Assembly (NCBI GenBank): GCA_000004985.1
Contig: GG738891.1
Length of the DNA: 64,000 nucleotides
Direction: 5' to 3' (one strand)
From: Naegleria gruberi
Taxonomy: Eukaryota
Below, piece after piece: positions 3,223-38,331 of this stretch (the first letter of the stretch is position 1; each line of letters opens with the position of its first letter). Below the pieces are notes generated by a model. That model was not told the DNA's origin and did not search any database. It saw nothing but the letters and a program-made list of their open reading frames with translations. Position numbers and translations under genes: made by a program.

Positions 3223-3295
3223 GTACCCTTGGCTCAATTGGAAGAGCATCGGCCTACGGAGCCGGGGGTTGTGGGTTCGAGTCCCACAGGGTATA
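3223..3295 (+). tRNA. tRNA-Arg (anticodon ACG), 73 nt, no intron
   Basis: Cloverleaf drawn by hand. Acceptor GTACCCT/AGGGTAT with a G1-U72 wobble pair. D-stem GCTC/GAGC. Anticodon stem TCGGC/GCCGG with loop CTACGGA, giving anticodon ACG at 3256-3258. T-arm GTGGG-TTCGAGT-CCCAC. Discriminator A. Confidence 0.8.
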
Positions 3296-5179: not shown

Positions 5180-5260
5180 GCAGGGGTTCCCGAGTGGTCA
5201 AAGGGGGTAGACTCAAGTTCTACTGCGCAAGCTTCGTGGGTTCAAATCCCACCTTCTGCA
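5180..5260 (+). tRNA. tRNA-Leu (anticodon CAA), type II with long variable arm, 81 nt, no intron
   Basis: Acceptor GCAGGGG/CTTCTGC with two G-U pairs. Anticodon stem GTAGA/TCTAC with loop CTCAAGT, giving anticodon CAA at 5214-5216. Variable arm of 12 nt (tgcgcaagcttc). T-arm GTGGG-TTCAAAT-CCCAC. Discriminator A. Confidence 0.85.
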
Positions 5261-9139: not shown

Positions 9140-10927
9140 CTAATCCATTTTAATTGACAATTCTTTTTCCAATTCCTTTCCAAATTCAGAGTGAAATCTA
9201 TAAAAACTGTCGAGCATGTTGTGTTCACACACTTGTTGAATTTCATTGAAAATTGAAATTGAGATGATGCTTTCCAAATTGGTTCCGTTCATTGAATTGT
9301 AGATTTCTATAATTTCTGGAATACCATTTGTAGATCGAGCAATGTTCAATTCGAGAGGAGCTCCCAATATTACATAGGTCTTTACAATTGTTCTGAATAA
9401 TTCGACTCGTTTCTTATTCGATTTGATCATTTTGAATTGTTCAATGGCATTCCACATCATGACATCTTCAGGACAATAACTCTTTTCATTGAATAAAAGG
9501 AATTTTGAATTCCACTTTTTAGAGGTCAAACATTTCTTGATGTGATTCGAAGAGTTTCCTCCAGAACTTTGAGAATCTCTTGGTTTTGAAGAGGAGGTAC
9601 TTCTTTGATAGATAAAAACTGGAAGGAAATGAGCTACAAATGTATCCCATATACATCCAAATACAATAAACATTTGCCATGGAAAGAAATAGTCAACTCT
9701 TTACAATAAATGTTAACTATTTAAAAACTACTAAAAGGTAACTTACAAAGTATTAATATCAGTAAAGAATGAAGGTATGGCATACAATAAACTTGATAAC
9801 AACCATCCTACACAAATTAAAAACAGCTCCAACTTAATTTTCCACACATCATTCTTCATAAACAGAGCTAGCACAAATAATCCAAAAATAATCAACACAT
9901 AAACTCCAAAATGAATTGCCATAATCACCAAATCAAGTGTTCCATTTCCACATCCTTCCACCGAAAGTAAATGAGTGCCCCGAACGAACGAAGATACTGA
10001 GCTATTCAATCTATCTGTTTCAGCAATAATGGCATTGTAATAATCTGCAACTCCAACTGAAAAGTAAATTATCAAGTGAATTCCATAAACAACCAGGAAG
10101 AGTAATCCAATGAATTTGGAGCTTGTGAAAAATCGATAGATTCTCAATTTTTGTTTGTCAAATTTGGAAGAACTCAATCTTGATATTTCTTGGCTGTTTG
10201 TAGAATTTTTGGAGGTTTTTCTTTTAGGAATTTCTACTTGGATGTGTGAATCAGCATTGGTTTGTTTAGTTTCAAGCTGTGAATTAGAATCAGTAGTAGT
10301 TTCTTCTTGATTATTCACCAAAGCAAGTGAACTAAACGATTGTGAAATGGAAACTCCACTCAAACTCTGCAGCTCCACACTATTTCCATTATTTCCACTC
10401 GATCCTTCCACCATAAAACTACTTAGATCATTCAACTCCATGCTTTGGCTCAATAACTTTCGTTTTCCAATTTTCACTTTCAATTGATTCATCCAAGTCA
10501 AGGCAATCAATCGAACACATCTCCCAATGATAATGGCAGCCAATCCAGGCACTGCCATCCAATAGGTGAAGGTAAATAGAAAGCACGGATAGGTCTTTCT
10601 GGAAATGACAACTCTCAACAGCTGAATTAATACGAAAGCATACGAAGTTAAAGTTCCCAGAACCATCAGAGCAGGATTTCTGGCAATGGATATGTAGTTA
10701 ACCTCCTTGTTGCCTATTCTGTTGGTTTTTAGTTTCCATTGTTTGTAGAAGAGGCCAATTAGACAGGCAATTACCATCACTGTGTAGAACCCAAGAAATA
10801 AACCAGCCGAAACTCGACTTGTGGGATAATCATCACATAATCCTCGATAACTCGTGTAGCCCATTTCAAGGAGAATAGGATGACATGCGGCTGATGTATC
10901 ATTGATAGAAGAAATAGAATAGTTCAT
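9140..10927 (-). CDS. 7TM-RGS protein, copy 1: join(complement(9747..10927), complement(9140..9698)), 579 aa. Seven predicted TM helices with a long Ser-rich loop between TM3 and TM4. TM7 and a C-terminal RGS domain lie on exon 2.
   Basis: The exon 1 frame ends ACT TT|GTAAGT: the apparent TAA stop at 9745-9743 is part of the donor. A 48-nt intron ends at acceptor AG 9700-9699. Splicing restores the frame into LVDYFFPWQMFIVFGCIW... (TM7) and then an RGS-like box. The lengths 1181+559 = 1740 are divisible by 3. The RGS box is SYCPEDVMMWNAIEQFKMIKSNKKRVELFRTIVKTYVILGAPLELNIARS...NMLDSFYRFHSEF. The architecture is analogous to plant AtRGS1-type 7TM-RGS. Confidence 0.75.
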
Positions 10928-11152
10928 GATAGAACCTGTGTGAATTTTTTTTCAAGTTTCGGATAATCAAATCATGGATGATTAACGTTAACAAAGACAG
11001 CAAGGGCTTCCGTAAGAGGCAAGGGCTATTAAGTTCCAATTCCAGAAATTGTAAAAAGTGAAATATTTACCATTAATATTTTTACTTTCAAAATTAAAAT
11101 ATTAATTTCCGTTTCTTCTGATTATTATATGTATTAAGAATCGTTTGAGTCT

Positions 11153-13007
11153 CTATATATCTTCAAATTTAATTCCCAATTCTTGTTCCAATTCCTTTCT
11201 AAATTCAGAGTGAAATCTCAGAAAACTATCAACCATGTTGTGTTCGCAAACCTGCTGAATTTCATTGAAAATTGAAATGGAAATTGAGATGCTTTCCAAA
11301 TTGGTTTCGTTAATCGAGTTGCAGAGTTCTATAATTTCTGGAATACCATTTGTAGATCGAGCAATGTTCAATTCGAGAGGAGCTCCAATCAAAATGTAGG
11401 TTCTCACAATAGTTCTGAATAATTCGACTCGTTTCTTATTCGATTTGATCATTTTGAATTGTTCAATGGCATTCCACATCATGACATCTTCAGGACAATA
11501 ACTCTTTTCATTGAATAAAAGGAATTTTGAATTCCACTTTTTGGAAGTTAAACACTTCTTGATGTGATTTGAAGAGTTTCCTCCAGAACTTTGAGAATCT
11601 CTTGGTTTTGATGAATTTCTATTCCTCTGATAGACAAAAACTGGAAGGAAATGAGCTACAAATGTATCCCATATACATCCAAATATAAGGAATAATTGCC
11701 ATGGAAAGAAATAGTCAACTCTAATTCACAATTATTTGCAAATCAAATTTCAATTACAATATTTCTTCTTCCAATTTAATGGATGTAACTACTTACAATG
11801 TAGTAATATCACTAAAGAATGAAGGAACAGCATAGGTAATTGTCGACAACAACCATCCCACACAAATCAATGACAATTCCCATTTGATTTTCCACACATC
11901 ATTCTTCATAAACAGAGCTACAATCACAAATCCCAACAAGAGTATCAAATAAGCTCCAAAATACGTGGCCATCACCACCAAATTATAAGTTCCATTTCCA
12001 CATCCCTGCTCTGATAACAAATGAGTTCCCACCACAAAGGACAACTTTTTGTTTTGTAACTTTTCCAATGAACCTGATTGGACATTGAAATAATCAGCAA
12101 CTCCAACTGAAAAGTAAATGATCAGATGGGTTCCATAGATCAGTGCAAATAGAATAGCAATGAATTTTGAGCTGGTAAAAAATCGATACATTCTCAATTT
12201 TTGCTTGTCGAATCTGGAAGATCCCAATCGAATAATTTCTTCACTATTTTCAGAGTTTCTCTTGTTGTTTGCTGTTTCATTATTTGATCTAGTCACTATA
12301 CTTTCGTCCTTCTTTTCTTTCTGTTCTGAACTACTTTCCACATTTGTTGCTGGGCCAAGATCTTGTTGATCTTCATTCATCAAGGCCCCAATCGAACTAA
12401 ACGATTGTGAAATGGAAACTCCACTCAAACTCTGCAGCTCCACATTACTTGCACTCATCAATTCTACTCGATTCTCATCCATCAATAAACTCCTACTCTC
12501 CGTATTCTCCAACATGAAACTCTGACTCAATAACTTTCGTTTTCCAATTTTCACTTTCAATTGATTCATCCAAGTCAAGGCAACCAATCGAACACATCTC
12601 CCAAGAATAATGGCAGCCAATCCAGGCACACCCATCCAATAAGTGAATGAAAACATGAAACAGGGAAATAATTTCCTCGAAATGACAACTCTCAACAATT
12701 GAACTAGTGTGAAAATGTACGAGGTGATAGTTCCCAAGACCATTAGTGTTGGATTTCTTGCGATGGATATGTAATTCACCTCTCTGTGTCCTATCCTATT
12801 AGTTTTTAATTTCCATTGTTTGTAGAATTGACCAATTAAACTGGCAATCACCAGAGCTGTGTACAATCCGAGTGTCAGAGCTGCCAAAACTCTACTCGTT
12901 GGATAGTCATCACATAATCCTCGATAGTTTGTGTAGCCCATGCGAAGGAGTGCTGGATGACACGCAGCCGAAGTGTCATTTATTGCATAAATTGATGTGT
13001 AGTTCAT
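11153..13007 (-). CDS. 7TM-RGS protein, copy 2 (tandem paralogue): join(complement(11797..13007), complement(11153..11720)), 592 aa
   Basis: Same architecture as copy 1. The donor is ACA TT|GTAAGT (GT at 11796-11795), again overlapping an apparent TAA. A 76-nt intron ends at acceptor AG 11722-11721. The likely ATG is at 13007 (MNYTSIYAINDTSAACHP..., aligning with the copy 1 N-terminus); the track start at 13127 adds 40 aa not found in copy 1. A roughly 200-nt tract in the RGS exon (about 11415-11620) is near-identical to copy 1 (about 9395-9600). Confidence 0.75.
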
Positions 13008-14748
13008 TTTGGCTTTCAATTTTTTTTTGCATGAGACTTTCTGCCACTCGATGATTGTTGACAGTTTAAAGGTTTCTTGAAGAGGCAACAGGATACAAAT
13101 AGATGAAAGCCAAATCGCAAAGTTCATTCTGAATCAAAACTAAAACCACTGTCCATTCAAACCAAAAATCCATCTATTTCGAATAAAACAATTGTATAAA
13201 TATCAAGTTTCACCTTTCAATATTTTCTTCAATCCAGCGCACCACACTCTTTCCATTATTATTCACCCAAATACCACCACTACAGCTTCTAAGTCCAAAA
13301 AGTAATTTACAGTAAATTCACAAATATCTACAGTACATTTAACTACCCACCTCAATTCAGAATATGAAACATACGCACGTTATTATACTGTAGTAACCAC
13401 GTTGCTCTTATTTATATAATAGATTATCGCAGTGCAAATCAATATCAGATATTATCAAAACAATCATTATAATTAATACAGGCAATATATCGCTCTCAAA
13501 GTTCATTGACCATTAATTGATGATTGAGGTTGTCAAGTCGTTGTTGGCACCTCTGTGATTATTTACTGTGAATACTTTGTGTTACTTTTAAATTGTGTTA
13601 TAATTGAAAGTAGGAAGGAATTAAGGAATTAAGGATTCTTTCATCAGTTTGAATTTACAATGATGCTTTCGCTTAATCCAATCAAAAAGAAAATTGAAAT
13701 ATATGGGTAGTCGTCGGACCATTCACATGAATGTCAAAACACCAATTTCAAGTGTTACTGGTTGAACGGTTGCAACGAAACCTAGAAAAATTCGCCATAA
13801 TTAAAGATGTGGAAAATTTGGCTTTGAAAGTGTCGAGTTTCAATATATTAAAAAGGAAGAGATGTGGACACGGCACTGTATCCAAGATACAATGAATGTG
13901 CAAACCAAACTCGTGAATTTTTGATTGTTTTTTAAGTTTTCAAGGATAGAAAATTCTGAATACTTGTTAATCAATACATATTGAACAACATTAAGGACAT
14001 ACACTAGTCAGGTCTGAAAAGAGCTCAACAAGCCCAAAAGAAGATTATAAGGTCCCTGAAAGAGCTTACTCGCTTAATGAACTAATAAGGATAATGAGTG
14101 TTTCGGATACTCGAACTCAGGCAAGCTGTGCTTAACAGTTACTTTTTAGAGACGAGTAATATAAGAAGAACAAACTGCTTGTTACGATGGTTTAAAAAGT
14201 GAATATTGAAAACCAGTAATACAATTAGAAAGAATTACTTCTTCCCCATGAGAATAAGAATTAGAAGCAATCTCGATATTGATATTAACAACAAAATGAT
14301 GTAGGGACATAAAATGGTACATTGCCTGTTTAAGAACATCCTTATAGAATCCGCTTCACTGAAGAAAAAGTTGTCTAGATTAAGCTAGTAGATTCCCTTA
14401 ATCAAATATCTCAAAACACCCTCCCCATTTAATCTACATTCTCTACAAATAAAGAAATCGTTTAAGCACATTGATGAGAATCACAGCGCTTGCGCATAGC
14501 ACAATAAACACTTCATACACACGTGTGTGGAGGAAGAAAAGGTCGTGCCATTCTATCACAAATTCTTCCTCCATGTTGCTCCTCCACAAACATCTCACCA
14601 ACCAACAAAACCTTAAAAAAAGCATCAACAAACAACAGTTTTAGACTGCTAGTTCTGTTCAGAATTAAACAAGGGAAGAATCAGTTCAATATTCACAAAC
14701 CTTTTGGCAAACACTAGTATCACCAATACATACACACATTTTGAGAGT

Positions 14749-37167: not shown

Positions 37168-38331
37168 TTATTTGTTATGTAGGAGGAGTGATGGATTAGA
37201 TATGGAGCTTTGAAGGTGGCTTTCAAGGAATTGATCAAATTCTCTCGAATCCATAAACCTCACAAAGACATCATGCAAATTACCCATACAATCATCAAGC
37301 ATTGATTTGTGAAGTGCCTTGTAATAGTTAAGTGTTGCTGCTTCGAGTGATATCTTTGGCATTTCTACCTTGTTAGTAGGAATAATGGCAGCATTGGTTG
37401 ATTCAACATTTGAATTTGTTGCTGTTGTTTCTGTTGTTGATGGTGTTTGACTCAATGTTTCTTCCTCTATTGTAATTTGTTCACTTGTTGATTCTGCAGC
37501 TATGGTCGATGGAGCTGTTGAAGAGTCAATTGTTGAAGAGGTTGTTGAAGAGTCAATTGTTGCAGTTGACTTTTCGGTGAGATCTGTTATTGTGGTAATT
37601 GTTGTTGCTGTATCTTGGTTCATTCCTTCAAGTCTTGGTGTTGTTGTGTAGGCAAATTCCTCGATACCTCCTTTCCTTCTCTTGGACAAGACAGCAAAGG
37701 TACAAAAACCAATATTCATCTCATAATCTGACCCAGAACTTAGGTATTCCTCTTCCACTCGTTCCATATCAGTAATGAATTTCTCTGTTTCTGTCATGTT
37801 TCTTTCGTCTGGTTTCTTCTTTAACAGAAGGTGTGAAACAGAATTTGTCTTGGCTTGCATATCATCACAATTGATGGTCAGCAAGACTTTTAACAAATCT
37901 AAATTTTCATGGCTATACTCCTTTTTAGAGAATTTGTATAAGAATTCAAAACCAACTGGATCAAACAAGACATCAGATAAATGATATTGTCCAGCATTGG
38001 CAGGTCTAACAGCAGCACTCGTAGCTCTTCCACTTCTATTGATGATATTTGTTTGTGAACCTGGTGAATCGAGTGCACTTTCCAACAGTGAAGAATTGGA
38101 CGAAAATTGGGTACTGTTTTGTTTGGCAATGCTGCTCTTTCGTGATGACTGCAATTTGGTCATGAGTTTAGTACCTAAAATCCTCTTTGCAAGACTGGCA
38201 TTATGATATGGATTTGGAGCTGATATGGAAGATCCATCAATTGACTGTGAATCTATGGATAATCTCGGTAAATGGCTCTTCTTTTCCAAAGGTTCTTCAT
38301 TAGAACGTTGTTGACTCAGGCAATTTCCCAT
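37168..38331 (-). CDS. RGS-domain protein with an N-terminal myristoylation/palmitoylation motif (MGNCLS). The RGS domain appears interrupted by a Ser/Thr-rich insert. 387 aa.
   Basis: HLSDVLFDPVGFEFLYKFSKKEYSHENLDLLKVLL matches the RGS N-terminal helices (F..FL..E.SEENL.F). The C-terminal AATLNYYKALHKSMLDDCMGNLHDVFVRFMDSREFDQFL matches the RGS C-terminal helices. Gly2 and Cys4 fit an acylation site. Confidence 0.6.
   Translation of the reverse strand: MGNCLSQQRSNEEPLEKKSHLPRLSIDSQSIDGSSISAPNPYHNASLAKRILGTKLMTKLQSSRKSSIAKQNSTQFSSNSSLLESALDSPGSQTNIINRSGRATSAAVRPANAGQYHLSDVLFDPVGFEFLYKFSKKEYSHENLDLLKVLLTINCDDMQAKTNSVSHLLLKKKPDERNMTETEKFITDMERVEEEYLSSGSDYEMNIGFCTFAVLSKRRKGGIEEFAYTTTPRLEGMNQDTATTITTITDLTEKSTATIDSSTTSSTIDSSTAPSTIAAESTSEQITIEEETLSQTPSTTETTATNSNVESTNAAIIPTNKVEMPKISLEAATLNYYKALHKSMLDDCMGNLHDVFVRFMDSREFDQFLESHLQSSISNPSLLLHNK

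What the first reader, a model, noticed from the sequence alone, without database searches (positions are those of the whole stretch)
9140..13007. Tandem pair of 7TM-RGS genes whose stop codon is really a splice donor
Two adjacent, same-strand paralogues each encode a seven-helix membrane protein. Helix 7 and a C-terminal RGS box sit on a second exon. In both copies exon 1 appears to end at TAA, but that TAA is the TAAGT of a G|GTAAGT donor (ACT TT|GTAAGT at 9746; ACA TT|GTAAGT at 11796). Splicing a 48-nt and a 76-nt intron restores the frame exactly into TM7 (LVDYFFPWQ...) and then the RGS domain.

ORF callers and the supplied track therefore report a truncated 6TM protein plus a separate small RGS protein. 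The fused receptor-plus-GAP architecture is the rare plant-type (AtRGS1-like) way of regulating G-alpha. Here it is duplicated, and each copy carries an unusually long Ser-rich insert between TM3 and TM4. The duplication fits the window's other G-protein-signalling genes (a myristoylated RGS protein at 37168..38331).

A roughly 200-nt near-identical tract in the RGS exons (about 9395-9600 and 11415-11620), amid otherwise diverged sequence, suggests gene conversion between the copies.
Basis: partly seen in the sequence, partly recalled or inferred. Interest (0 to 1): 0.7.

Follow-up and report, generated by a model that had tools for sequence, protein, structure and literature searches.

The report
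Two tandem Naegleria 7TM-RGS receptor genes

Summary
On the minus strand, copy A (10927..9140) and copy B (13007..11153) each have a phase-2 intron with a GTAAGT donor, 48 nt and 76 nt long. Removing it joins six TM helices to TM7 plus an RGS box that passes Pfam's threshold.

The window is Naegleria gruberi. The public model of copy B (NAEGRDRAFT_71509) already uses exactly this intron. Copy A is wrongly split into NAEGRDRAFT_71508 (a TM fragment ending at the TAA) and NAEGRDRAFT_71507 (an RGS fragment).

Synonymous divergence between the copies is mosaic (pS 0.07-0.3 against 0.6-0.77, permutation p about 2e-4).

The architecture is not rare here. N. fowleri has 28 7TM-RGS proteins, and GAP activity was shown for some (Bosch et al. 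2022). The in-frame TAA follows automatically from a phase-2 GTAAGT donor.

Verdict: a correct reading of ordinary, already-known biology. It yields a small annotation fix and a modest case of concerted evolution.

The parts
9747..10927 (-). Copy A exon 1. It runs from Met1 to the first two bases of codon 394 and encodes the extracellular N-terminus, TM1-TM6 and the Ser-rich TM3-TM4 loop (loop = 10112..10489).
   Evidence: ORF list, splice arithmetic, hydropathy. Residues 124-394 are the public fragment NAEGRDRAFT_71508.
9699..9746 (-). Copy A intron: 48 nt, phase 2, GTAAGT...GTAAAG, 21% GC. The apparent stop TAA (9745..9743) is bases 2-4 of the donor.
   Evidence: The orthologous contig L001 (98% identical strain) has 2/48 differences in the intron against 1/180 in the flanking exons.
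9140..9698 (-). Copy A exon 2: ECL3 end, TM7 (about 9611..9667), linker, RGS box (about 9212..9535), stop TAG at 9142..9140.
   Evidence: The ORF from the internal Met (9673) is the public fragment NAEGRDRAFT_71507, 177 aa.
11797..13007 (-). Copy B exon 1. It runs from Met1 at 13007 and encodes TM1-TM6 and the Ser-rich loop (12162..12566). The public model starts at Met23 (12941).
   Evidence: Similarity between A and B stops upstream of this ATG. The conserved C-H-P-x-L-L motif lies upstream of Met23.
11721..11796 (-). Copy B intron: 76 nt, phase 2, GTAAGT...AATTAG, 24% GC. It does not align with copy A's intron.
   Evidence: The public model NAEGRDRAFT_71509 removes exactly this intron.
11153..11720 (-). 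Copy B exon 2: TM7 (about 11630..11695), linker, RGS box (about 11213..11557), stop TAG at 11155..11153.
   Evidence: AF2 model helices 391-412 (TM7) and 429-563 (RGS) in P0155 numbering. Foldseek RGS hits.
9392..9661 (-). Low-synonymous-divergence (conversion-like) tract 1 in copy A. Its partner in copy B is about 11414..11683. The perfect-identity core is A 9392..9520 = B 11414..11542.
   Evidence: 195/200 nt identical over 9400-9600, pS 0.07-0.3, 38-codon synonymous-identical run, p = 1.7e-4.
10331..10540 (-). Low-synonymous-divergence tract 2 in copy A exon 1, covering the end of TM3, the start of the cytoplasmic loop and the VELQSLSGVSISQSFSS motif. Its partner in copy B is about 12396..12617.
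   Evidence: runs of 22 and 19 synonymous-identical codons; pS 0.15-0.22 against 0.6-0.77 in the 5' part.

Best explanation
The window is Naegleria gruberi nuclear DNA. It carries two tandem paralogues of the heterolobosean 7TM-RGS family.

Gene structure. Each gene has two exons separated by a short phase-2 GT-AG intron. Spliceosomal removal of the intron joins TM1-TM6 (exon 1) to TM7, a Ser-rich linker and an RGS box (exon 2).

Protein. The product is a plasma-membrane protein with a GPCR-fold seven-helix bundle. The short glycosylatable, Cys-containing N-terminus is outside, a long disordered Ser-rich intracellular loop 2 is inside, and the RGS domain is in the cytoplasm.

Inferred mechanism, by analogy with N. 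fowleri 7TM RGS2-4 and Arabidopsis AtRGS1. The RGS box binds the transition state of one or more of Naegleria's many G-alpha subunits, some of which self-activate, and accelerates GTP hydrolysis. An extracellular or membrane cue sensed by the 7TM part would modulate that GAP activity or the protein's location.

Evolution of the pair. The two copies arose by local duplication. They have since exchanged sequence by gene conversion over the RGS exon and the TM3/ICL2 boundary, while TM1-2, ECL2 and most of ICL2 diverged.

Shown here: exon and intron structure, domain content, fold, conserved contact residues, mosaic dS, and the state of the public models.

Inferred: actual splicing of copy A, GAP activity, the ligand, and the conversion mechanism.
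For: Identity of the window:
- Exact-sequence look-ups match NAEGRDRAFT_71507, 71508, 71509 and 59003, all on one 339,217-nt N. gruberi contig.

Splice:
- The junction arithmetic works.
- NAEGRDRAFT_71509 equals spliced copy B from Met23 and contains SDITTL|VDYFFPWQ.
- The paralogues P0003 and P0156 read ...LSILVDYFFP and ...LSTLVDYYFP with no gap at the junction.
- A third paralogue contig, L002, has the same TT|GTAAGT donor, an unrelated 55-nt intron, and resumes VDYYFPW.
- A-B nucleotide identity is 69/90 before the donor, 40/76 in the intron and 84/90 after the acceptor.
- Coding conservation reaches the acceptor, well upstream of any exon-2 ATG.
- 103 of 144 family representatives align across A residues 380-450 in one HSP.

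Domains and fold:
- Pfam RGS is above its gathering score.
- Seven hydrophobic segments follow the positive-inside rule.
- The AF2 model of copy B has pLDDT 82.5 and pTM 0.80.
- Foldseek gives probability 1.00 and TM-score 0.65-0.78 to RGS16, RGS8, RGS2 and RGS4.
- The equivalents of RGS4 S85, E87, N128, D163 and R167 are kept in 46-49 of 48-49 family members, including both copies.

Function by analogy:
- N. fowleri 7TM RGS2-4 RGS domains are GAPs for Nf G-alpha subunits (PMC9283941).
- An N. fowleri family member (P0027, FDP41_012977) aligns to copy A over residues 4-564, E = 1e-37.

Selection and conversion:
- Overall dN/dS is about 0.27, so the pair is under purifying selection.
- The pS mosaic and run test support conversion.
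Against: - The exact spliced products are not in the protein collection.
- Copy A is modelled publicly as two genes.
- The equivalent of RGS4 N88 is Asp in both copies and varies across the family, so GAP potency and G-alpha specificity are uncertain.
- The Pfam scores are only just above threshold.
- No ligand or G-alpha partner can be inferred.
- The splice is not arithmetically unique.
Confidence: 0.88

Rival explanations
1. The public annotation of copy A is right. Under this reading, copy A has decayed into, or is expressed as, two separate products: a truncated TM protein (NAEGRDRAFT_71508) and a small soluble or single-TM RGS protein (NAEGRDRAFT_71507) translated from the Met at 9673.
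For: Both fragments exist as public models. Exon 2 of copy A does have an in-frame ATG (9673) 24 nt after the acceptor.
Against: - The 71508 model starts at Met124 inside TM3 and drops TM1-2, which are conserved. It looks like a modelling artefact.
- The donor, acceptor and junction residues are the same as in copy B, whose public model is spliced.
- The Met at 9673 lies inside TM7 and is Leu in copy B.
- Coding conservation covers the eight codons between the acceptor and that Met.
- There are no disabling mutations, and dN/dS is about 0.27.
- The 98%-identical strain keeps both splice sites.
Confidence: 0.04
2. Intron retention is used as a switch. Because the donor carries an immediate in-frame TAA, unspliced mRNA would give a 6TM protein lacking TM7 and RGS, or would be degraded by NMD. 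That would let the cell tune the amount of receptor-GAP. This adds to the main model rather than replacing it.
For: The TT|GTAAGT phase-2 donor, and so the immediate TAA, is conserved in three paralogues. The introns are very short and AT-rich.
Against: The immediate TAA is an automatic consequence of a phase-2 GTAAGT donor, so its conservation only shows that the intron position is conserved. Nothing else found here points to regulation. A 6TM product would have the wrong topology for a GPCR fold.
Confidence: 0.08
3. The near-identical tract is not gene conversion. It reflects unusually strong constraint on that stretch (at nucleotide, RNA or codon-usage level), or a younger partial duplication.
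For: The tract codes for the most conserved part of the RGS box, helices alpha1 to alpha5, where pN = 0. With only two sequences, a formal conversion test is weak.
Against: - The test used only codons with identical amino acids, so protein-level constraint is already factored out.
- pS falls from 0.6-0.77 to 0.07.
- A second low-dS tract lies partly in a disordered loop, where no protein constraint is expected.
- The non-Naegleria-gruberi paralogues diverge strongly in the same RGS stretch.
Confidence: 0.15
4. The 7TM part is a true GPCR that acts as an exchange factor (GEF) on G-alpha, and the fused RGS domain acts as a built-in timer. In that case the protein is not a pure GAP receptor of the AtRGS1 type.
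For: The bundle has a full GPCR fold, closest to class C receptors, some of which couple to G proteins. GPR158, one of the top hits, recruits an RGS protein in trans.
Against: No sequence family membership was found: there are no 7tm Pfam hits at E <= 1. In N. fowleri the partner G-alpha subunits include self-activating ones that need no GEF (PMC9283941). No G-protein-coupling motifs could be assessed.
Confidence: 0.1

Closest known systems
Naegleria fowleri 7TM RGS family (Nf 7TM RGS1-4 and 24 others; Bosch, Jeck & Siderovski, J Biol Chem 2022, PMC9283941)
   Same: It is the same protein family by sequence. N. fowleri FDP41_012977 aligns to copy A over residues 4-564 at E = 1e-37. The architecture is the same (N-terminal 7TM, C-terminal RGS) and so is the genus. 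The RGS domains of three members were shown to be GAPs for Naegleria G-alpha subunits.
   Different: The N. fowleri members that were characterised have large extracellular N-termini (EGF-like, lectin and GPS motifs). Copies A and B have only about 40 extracellular residues with two N-glycosylation sequons and conserved cysteines. Identity to any named N. fowleri or N. lovaniensis member is 39% or less, so there is no clear one-to-one orthologue. No biochemistry exists for the N. gruberi proteins.
Arabidopsis thaliana AtRGS1 (plant 7TM-RGS)
   Same: It has the same domain order and the same predicted topology, with the RGS box in the cytoplasm. The presumed logic is also the same: a receptor-like GAP acting on self-activating G-alpha.
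   Different: No sequence or profile link between the 7TM parts was found or could be tested here. AtRGS1 has short loops. These proteins have a 126-135-aa disordered Ser-rich ICL2. Plants usually have one copy, whereas N. fowleri has 28.
Class C GPCR 7TM domains (GABA-B, mGlu, GPR158, GPR156, GPRC5D)
R4-type RGS domains (RGS2, RGS4, RGS8, RGS16)
   Same: These are the closest solved relatives of the C-terminal domain by sequence (E about 3e-5) and by fold. The G-alpha contact residues S85, E87, N128, D163 and R167 (RGS4 numbering) are conserved.
   Different: The N88 equivalent is Asp. The domain is tethered to a 7TM bundle by a Ser-rich linker of about 25 residues, rather than by an amphipathic helix.

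Membership tests
7TM-RGS architecture class (AtRGS1-type receptor-GAP) | Seven transmembrane helices N-terminal to the RGS box, forming a GPCR-like bundle | tested here: met
   [not shown]
7TM-RGS architecture class (AtRGS1-type receptor-GAP) | C-terminal RGS domain recognised by the curated model | tested here: met
   PF00615 scores 25.0 bits (A) and 29.3 bits (B) against a gathering score of 23.9. Foldseek gives probability 1.00 to RGS structures.
7TM-RGS architecture class (AtRGS1-type receptor-GAP) | RGS box on the cytoplasmic side of the membrane | tested here: met
   Positive-inside rule: K+R counts are 6, 17, 3 and 21 in the odd loops and C-tail, against 2, 2, 2 and 0 in the N-terminus and even loops. 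N-glycosylation sequons lie in the N-terminus and ECL2. This is prediction only.
7TM-RGS architecture class (AtRGS1-type receptor-GAP) | Both parts encoded in one transcript and one polypeptide | tested here: inconclusive
   This is supported by comparison: the public spliced model of copy B and 103/144 relatives that are continuous across the junction. No RNA data for copy A or B were available.
7TM-RGS architecture class (AtRGS1-type receptor-GAP) | GAP activity on a cognate G-alpha | not testable with these tools
   Only the contact residues could be checked. The S85, E87, N128, D163 and R167 equivalents are conserved. The N88 equivalent is Asp.
Plant RGS1 family (homology, not just architecture) | Detectable sequence or profile similarity of the 7TM region to AtRGS1 | not tested
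   The AFDB fold library was unavailable. Among the members looked up, profile searches returned only heterolobosean and unnamed metagenomic members plus RGS-only hits.
Heterolobosean (Naegleria/Willaertia) 7TM RGS family | Full-length sequence similarity to named members covering both the TM and RGS parts | tested here: met
   Copy A aligns to N. lovaniensis C9374_012022 (39% identity, residues 6-573, E = 4e-126), N. gruberi P0003 (38%, 4-577), N. fowleri FDP41_012977 (4-564, E = 1e-37) and Willaertia magna ABK040_016376 (6-565, E = 7e-25).
Class C GPCRs (Pfam 7tm_3) | Match to the family's sequence model | tested here: not met
   No 7tm Pfam family was hit at E <= 1. The resemblance is in fold only.

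The most novel reading that the evidence does not exclude
Gene conversion in this tandem pair may be confined to the cytoplasmic signalling modules: the RGS box with its linker, and the TM3/ICL2 junction with the VELQSLSGVSISQSFSS motif. The ligand-facing parts (N-terminus, TM1-2, ECL2) are left free to diverge. Concerted evolution would then keep both receptors coupled to the same G-alpha and the same regulatory kinase, while letting them sense different cues. That would be one way the large Naegleria 7TM-RGS repertoire diversifies its inputs without rewiring its outputs.
Probability: 0.2. Interest if true: 0.35.

Novelty: already known. Interest (0 to 1): 0.15.

Why it matters
The practical value is small.

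- NAEGRDRAFT_71507 and NAEGRDRAFT_71508 should be merged into one 579-aa 7TM-RGS gene.
- NAEGRDRAFT_71509 should probably start 22 codons earlier, at the Met at 13007. That restores the family's conserved N-terminal Cys-His-Pro motif.
- Counts of 7TM-RGS genes in N. gruberi that rely on the public proteome will miss copy A.
- The pair gives a clean example of segmental gene conversion inside an expanding receptor family.
- It also illustrates a general trap: ORF callers truncate eukaryotic genes at phase-2 GTAAGT donors.

It does not change how G-protein signalling in Naegleria is understood. That was set out by Bosch et al. 2022 and by earlier comparative surveys.

Tried and rejected
I used the paralogue P0003 and the public spliced model P0155 instead.
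- The word-indexed homology search with copy A, and with two alignments, returned only 4-7 hits. The single-sequence search with copy A and the first alignment search also missed the 100%-identical N. gruberi fragments; the last one recovered P0036. The exhaustive search was needed to see the family.
- The look-up of encoding contigs has no record of the N. gruberi gene models. I could not inspect intron positions in paralogues or the record's neighbouring annotations.
- The AFDB Foldseek library was unavailable, so there was no fold-level comparison with AtRGS1 or other predicted 7TM-RGS proteins.
- A window-wide scan for donor/acceptor pairs that reopen long frames was too unspecific to give a local intron consensus.
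- Enumerating every GT/AG pair showed that the proposed splice is not arithmetically unique, so I did not use uniqueness as an argument.
- A three-way comparison with the 98%-identical strain contigs gave too few informative sites to date the conversion or show it recurring.
- I considered TAA readthrough or reassignment and rejected it. Both genes end in TAG, and the introns contain several stops of all three kinds in frame.
- I considered the third RGS gene at 37168..38331 as evidence of a signalling gene cluster and rejected it, because the related N. fowleri has more than 100 RGS genes (28 7TM-RGS plus 79 others).
Full report
**What is in the sequence**

The region 9140..13007 holds two genes on the minus strand.

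- Copy A: a 394-codon ORF (10927..9743) ends ...ACT TTG TAA. The bases TT|GTAAGT place a consensus donor at 9746.
- 48 nt further on, after ...TTGTAAAG, the frame reopens as (TT)A GTT GAC TAT TTC TTT CCA TGG CAA and runs to a TAG at 9142..9140.
- Copy B: the same pattern, with ACA TT|GTAAGT at 11796, a 76-nt intron ending AATTAG at 11721, and an exon that runs to a TAG at 11155..11153.
- The spliced products are 579 aa and 592 aa and read ...TDINTL|VDYFFPWQ... and ...SDITTL|VDYFFPWQ....
- Without splicing, translation meets four to six stops inside each intron.
- The introns are 21-24% GC, against 34% for the whole window.

**The in-frame TAA is an arithmetic by-product**

Both introns are phase 2. 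With a GTAAGT donor, the frame necessarily reads xyG TAA GT. Every phase-2 intron with the consensus donor therefore looks to an ORF caller like a stop codon. The title feature of the finding is correct but has no special meaning.

**Whose genome this is, and what the public models say**

- Exact-sequence look-ups identify the window as Naegleria gruberi, on a 339,217-nt scaffold.
- The 177-aa ORF 9673..9143 is NAEGRDRAFT_71507 (EFC40632.1).
- A residues 124-394 are NAEGRDRAFT_71508 (EFC40633.1, 271 aa, ending at the TAA).
- The ORF 38331..37171 is NAEGRDRAFT_59003.
- Copy B is NAEGRDRAFT_71509 (EFC40634.1, 570 aa). It equals my spliced copy B from Met23 onward and contains SDITTLVDYFFPWQ. The proposed 76-nt intron is therefore already in the public model.
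- Only copy A is mis-modelled, as a TM fragment plus an RGS fragment. The full spliced copy A is not in the 15-billion-protein collection.

**Evidence for the splice without RNA data**

1. Copy B's public model uses it.
2. Other N. gruberi paralogues run through the junction without a gap: P0003 ...LSILVDYFFP and P0156 ...LSTLVDYYFP.
3. A third paralogue lies on a metagenome contig from a 98%-identical strain (L002). It has the same TT|GTAAGT donor at the same codon, an unrelated 55-nt intron, and resumes VDYYFPW.
4. A-B nucleotide identity is 69/90 just before the donor, 40/76 in the intron with a length difference, and 84/90 just after the acceptor.
5. Amino-acid conservation starts at the acceptor, not at the first exon-2 ATG. 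In copy B that ATG lies 79 codons downstream, inside the RGS box.
6. Of 144 family representatives that hit copy A, 103 align in one piece across residues 380-450.

One caveat applies. 47-49 other GT/AG pairs also give open frames by deleting more coding sequence. The argument therefore rests on consensus and homology, not on arithmetic uniqueness.

**What the proteins are**

- Pfam RGS (PF00615) passes its gathering score in both: 25.0 and 29.3 bits against 23.9.
- The nearest solved relatives are R4-type RGS domains.
- Hydropathy gives seven segments (A: 42-60, 86-108, 116-146, 273-291, 334-352, 366-384, 405-423). The positive-inside pattern places the N-terminus outside and the RGS domain inside.
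- AlphaFold2 on the public spliced copy B with a 52-sequence family alignment gives pLDDT 82.5 and pTM 0.80. It shows seven long helices, with TM7 (391-412) coming from exon 2. There is a short helix at the junction, a disordered stretch at 160-226, and a helical bundle at 429-563.
- The paralogue P0003 gives the same picture.
- Foldseek matches the C-terminal domain to RGS16, RGS8, RGS2 and RGS4 with probability 1.00.
- Across the family, the equivalents of RGS4 Ser85, Glu87, Asn128, Asp163 and Arg167 are kept in 46-49 of 48-49 sequences, including both copies. These are the G-alpha contact residues; the numbering is from my knowledge of the RGS4-Gi-alpha1 structure. The Asn88 position varies and is Asp here.

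**How it most likely works**

These are receptor-like GTPase-accelerating proteins. The cytoplasmic RGS box should bind G-alpha in its transition state and speed GTP hydrolysis. The 7TM bundle should tether the RGS box to the membrane and probably couple it to an external cue.

This is inferred from relatives. In N. fowleri, the isolated RGS domains of 7TM RGS2-4 accelerate GTP hydrolysis on several Nf G-alpha subunits, including self-activating ones, through the canonical interface (PMC9283941). The long Ser-rich ICL2 (18-21% Ser) is a candidate phosphoregulatory region. That idea is speculation.

**The duplicates**

- Overall dS is about 0.67 and dN about 0.18, so the pair is under purifying selection.
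- Synonymous divergence is strongly mosaic. pS is 0.62-0.77 over the first 120 codons. It is 0.15-0.22 around A 10570-10330, and 0.07-0.30 over A 9660-9390.
- Using only codons whose amino acid is identical in both copies, the longest run without a synonymous change is 38 codons (A 9520..9392 = B 11542..11414). Permutation gives p = 1.7e-4. Further runs of 22 and 19 codons lie in exon 1.
- Gene conversion is the best explanation. With two sequences it cannot be proved.

**Comparison with what is known**

- The fused architecture is not rare in this lineage. N. fowleri has 28 7TM-RGS proteins and 79 other RGS proteins (PMC9283941).
- An exhaustive search with a paralogue found 208 cluster representatives. 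Those with names are from N. gruberi, N. lovaniensis, N. fowleri and Willaertia magna.
- Surveys report 7TM-RGS proteins in many bikonts and some opisthokonts (PMC3971589).
- Other family members also sit close together in N. gruberi. EFC37800 and EFC37803 share one scaffold, and so do P0003 and P0156.
- Whether the 7TM part is homologous to plant AtRGS1 or only analogous could not be tested.

**Side claims**

- The long TM3-TM4 insert is real, but it is shared by paralogues.
- The gene at 37168..38331 starts MGNCLSQ, which fits the N-myristoylation pattern. It has a sub-threshold, interrupted RGS match (18.9 bits).
- Since the related N. fowleri has more than 100 RGS genes, its presence 25 kb away is not evidence of a functional cluster.

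**Verdict**

The net gain is a corrected model for copy A, a likely N-terminal extension for copy B, and a modest case of segmental concerted evolution.

Noticed in passing
window 12941..13007 (-): The public model of copy B (NAEGRDRAFT_71509) starts at Met23. The 22 codons upstream, from the ATG at 13007, encode two N-glycosylation sequons and the Cys-His-Pro-x-Leu-Leu motif, which is invariant in the four closest relatives. The family consensus CxPxL covers the same position. The true start is therefore probably 13007.
   Followed up: partly
window 13008..13127 (-): Copy B has a further in-frame ATG 40 codons upstream (MNFAIWLSSICILLPLQ..., a signal-peptide-like stretch). Copy A has stops in the same position. 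A-B similarity ends at the MNY start. The 98% strain (P0002/L003) carries an 18-nt indel and several changes here. It is probably 5' UTR.
   Followed up: partly
L002 about 2700-2740: The third paralogue, on metagenome contig ERZ929261 k127_223625, has TAG where copies A and B have TGG (the Trp of KKWN at the start of the RGS box). It could be a pseudogene, a strain variant or an assembly error. The contig ends about 20 nt later.
   Followed up: no
window 37168..38331 (-): NAEGRDRAFT_59003 starts MGNCLSQ (Gly2/Ser6 myristoylation pattern plus Cys4). Its RGS match covers only model positions 2-81 (residues 118-220, 18.9 bits). A Thr/Ser-rich insert of about 110 aa seems to separate this from a C-terminal ...DVFVRFMDSREF... 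stretch that looks like the last RGS helices. It may be an RGS box split by a low-complexity insert.
   Followed up: partly
[not shown]
   Followed up: partly
L001, L002, L003 (ENA ERZ929261, PRJEB11402): One metagenome assembly holds contigs about 98% identical to this N. gruberi locus, plus another family member. A close relative of strain NEG-M was therefore present in that sample.
   Followed up: no
window 3223..3295 (+) and 5180..5260 (+): ARAGORN finds two tRNA genes, tRNA-Arg(ACG) and tRNA-Leu(CAA), about 2 kb apart upstream of the locus.
   Followed up: no
window 10331..10408 (-) = 12396..12464 (-): Within the otherwise fast-diverging, disordered ICL2, a 17-residue motif VELQSLSGVSISQSFSS is identical between the copies at the protein level, with no synonymous codon differences across it. 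It is a candidate regulatory (phospho-)motif, or part of a conversion tract.
   Followed up: partly
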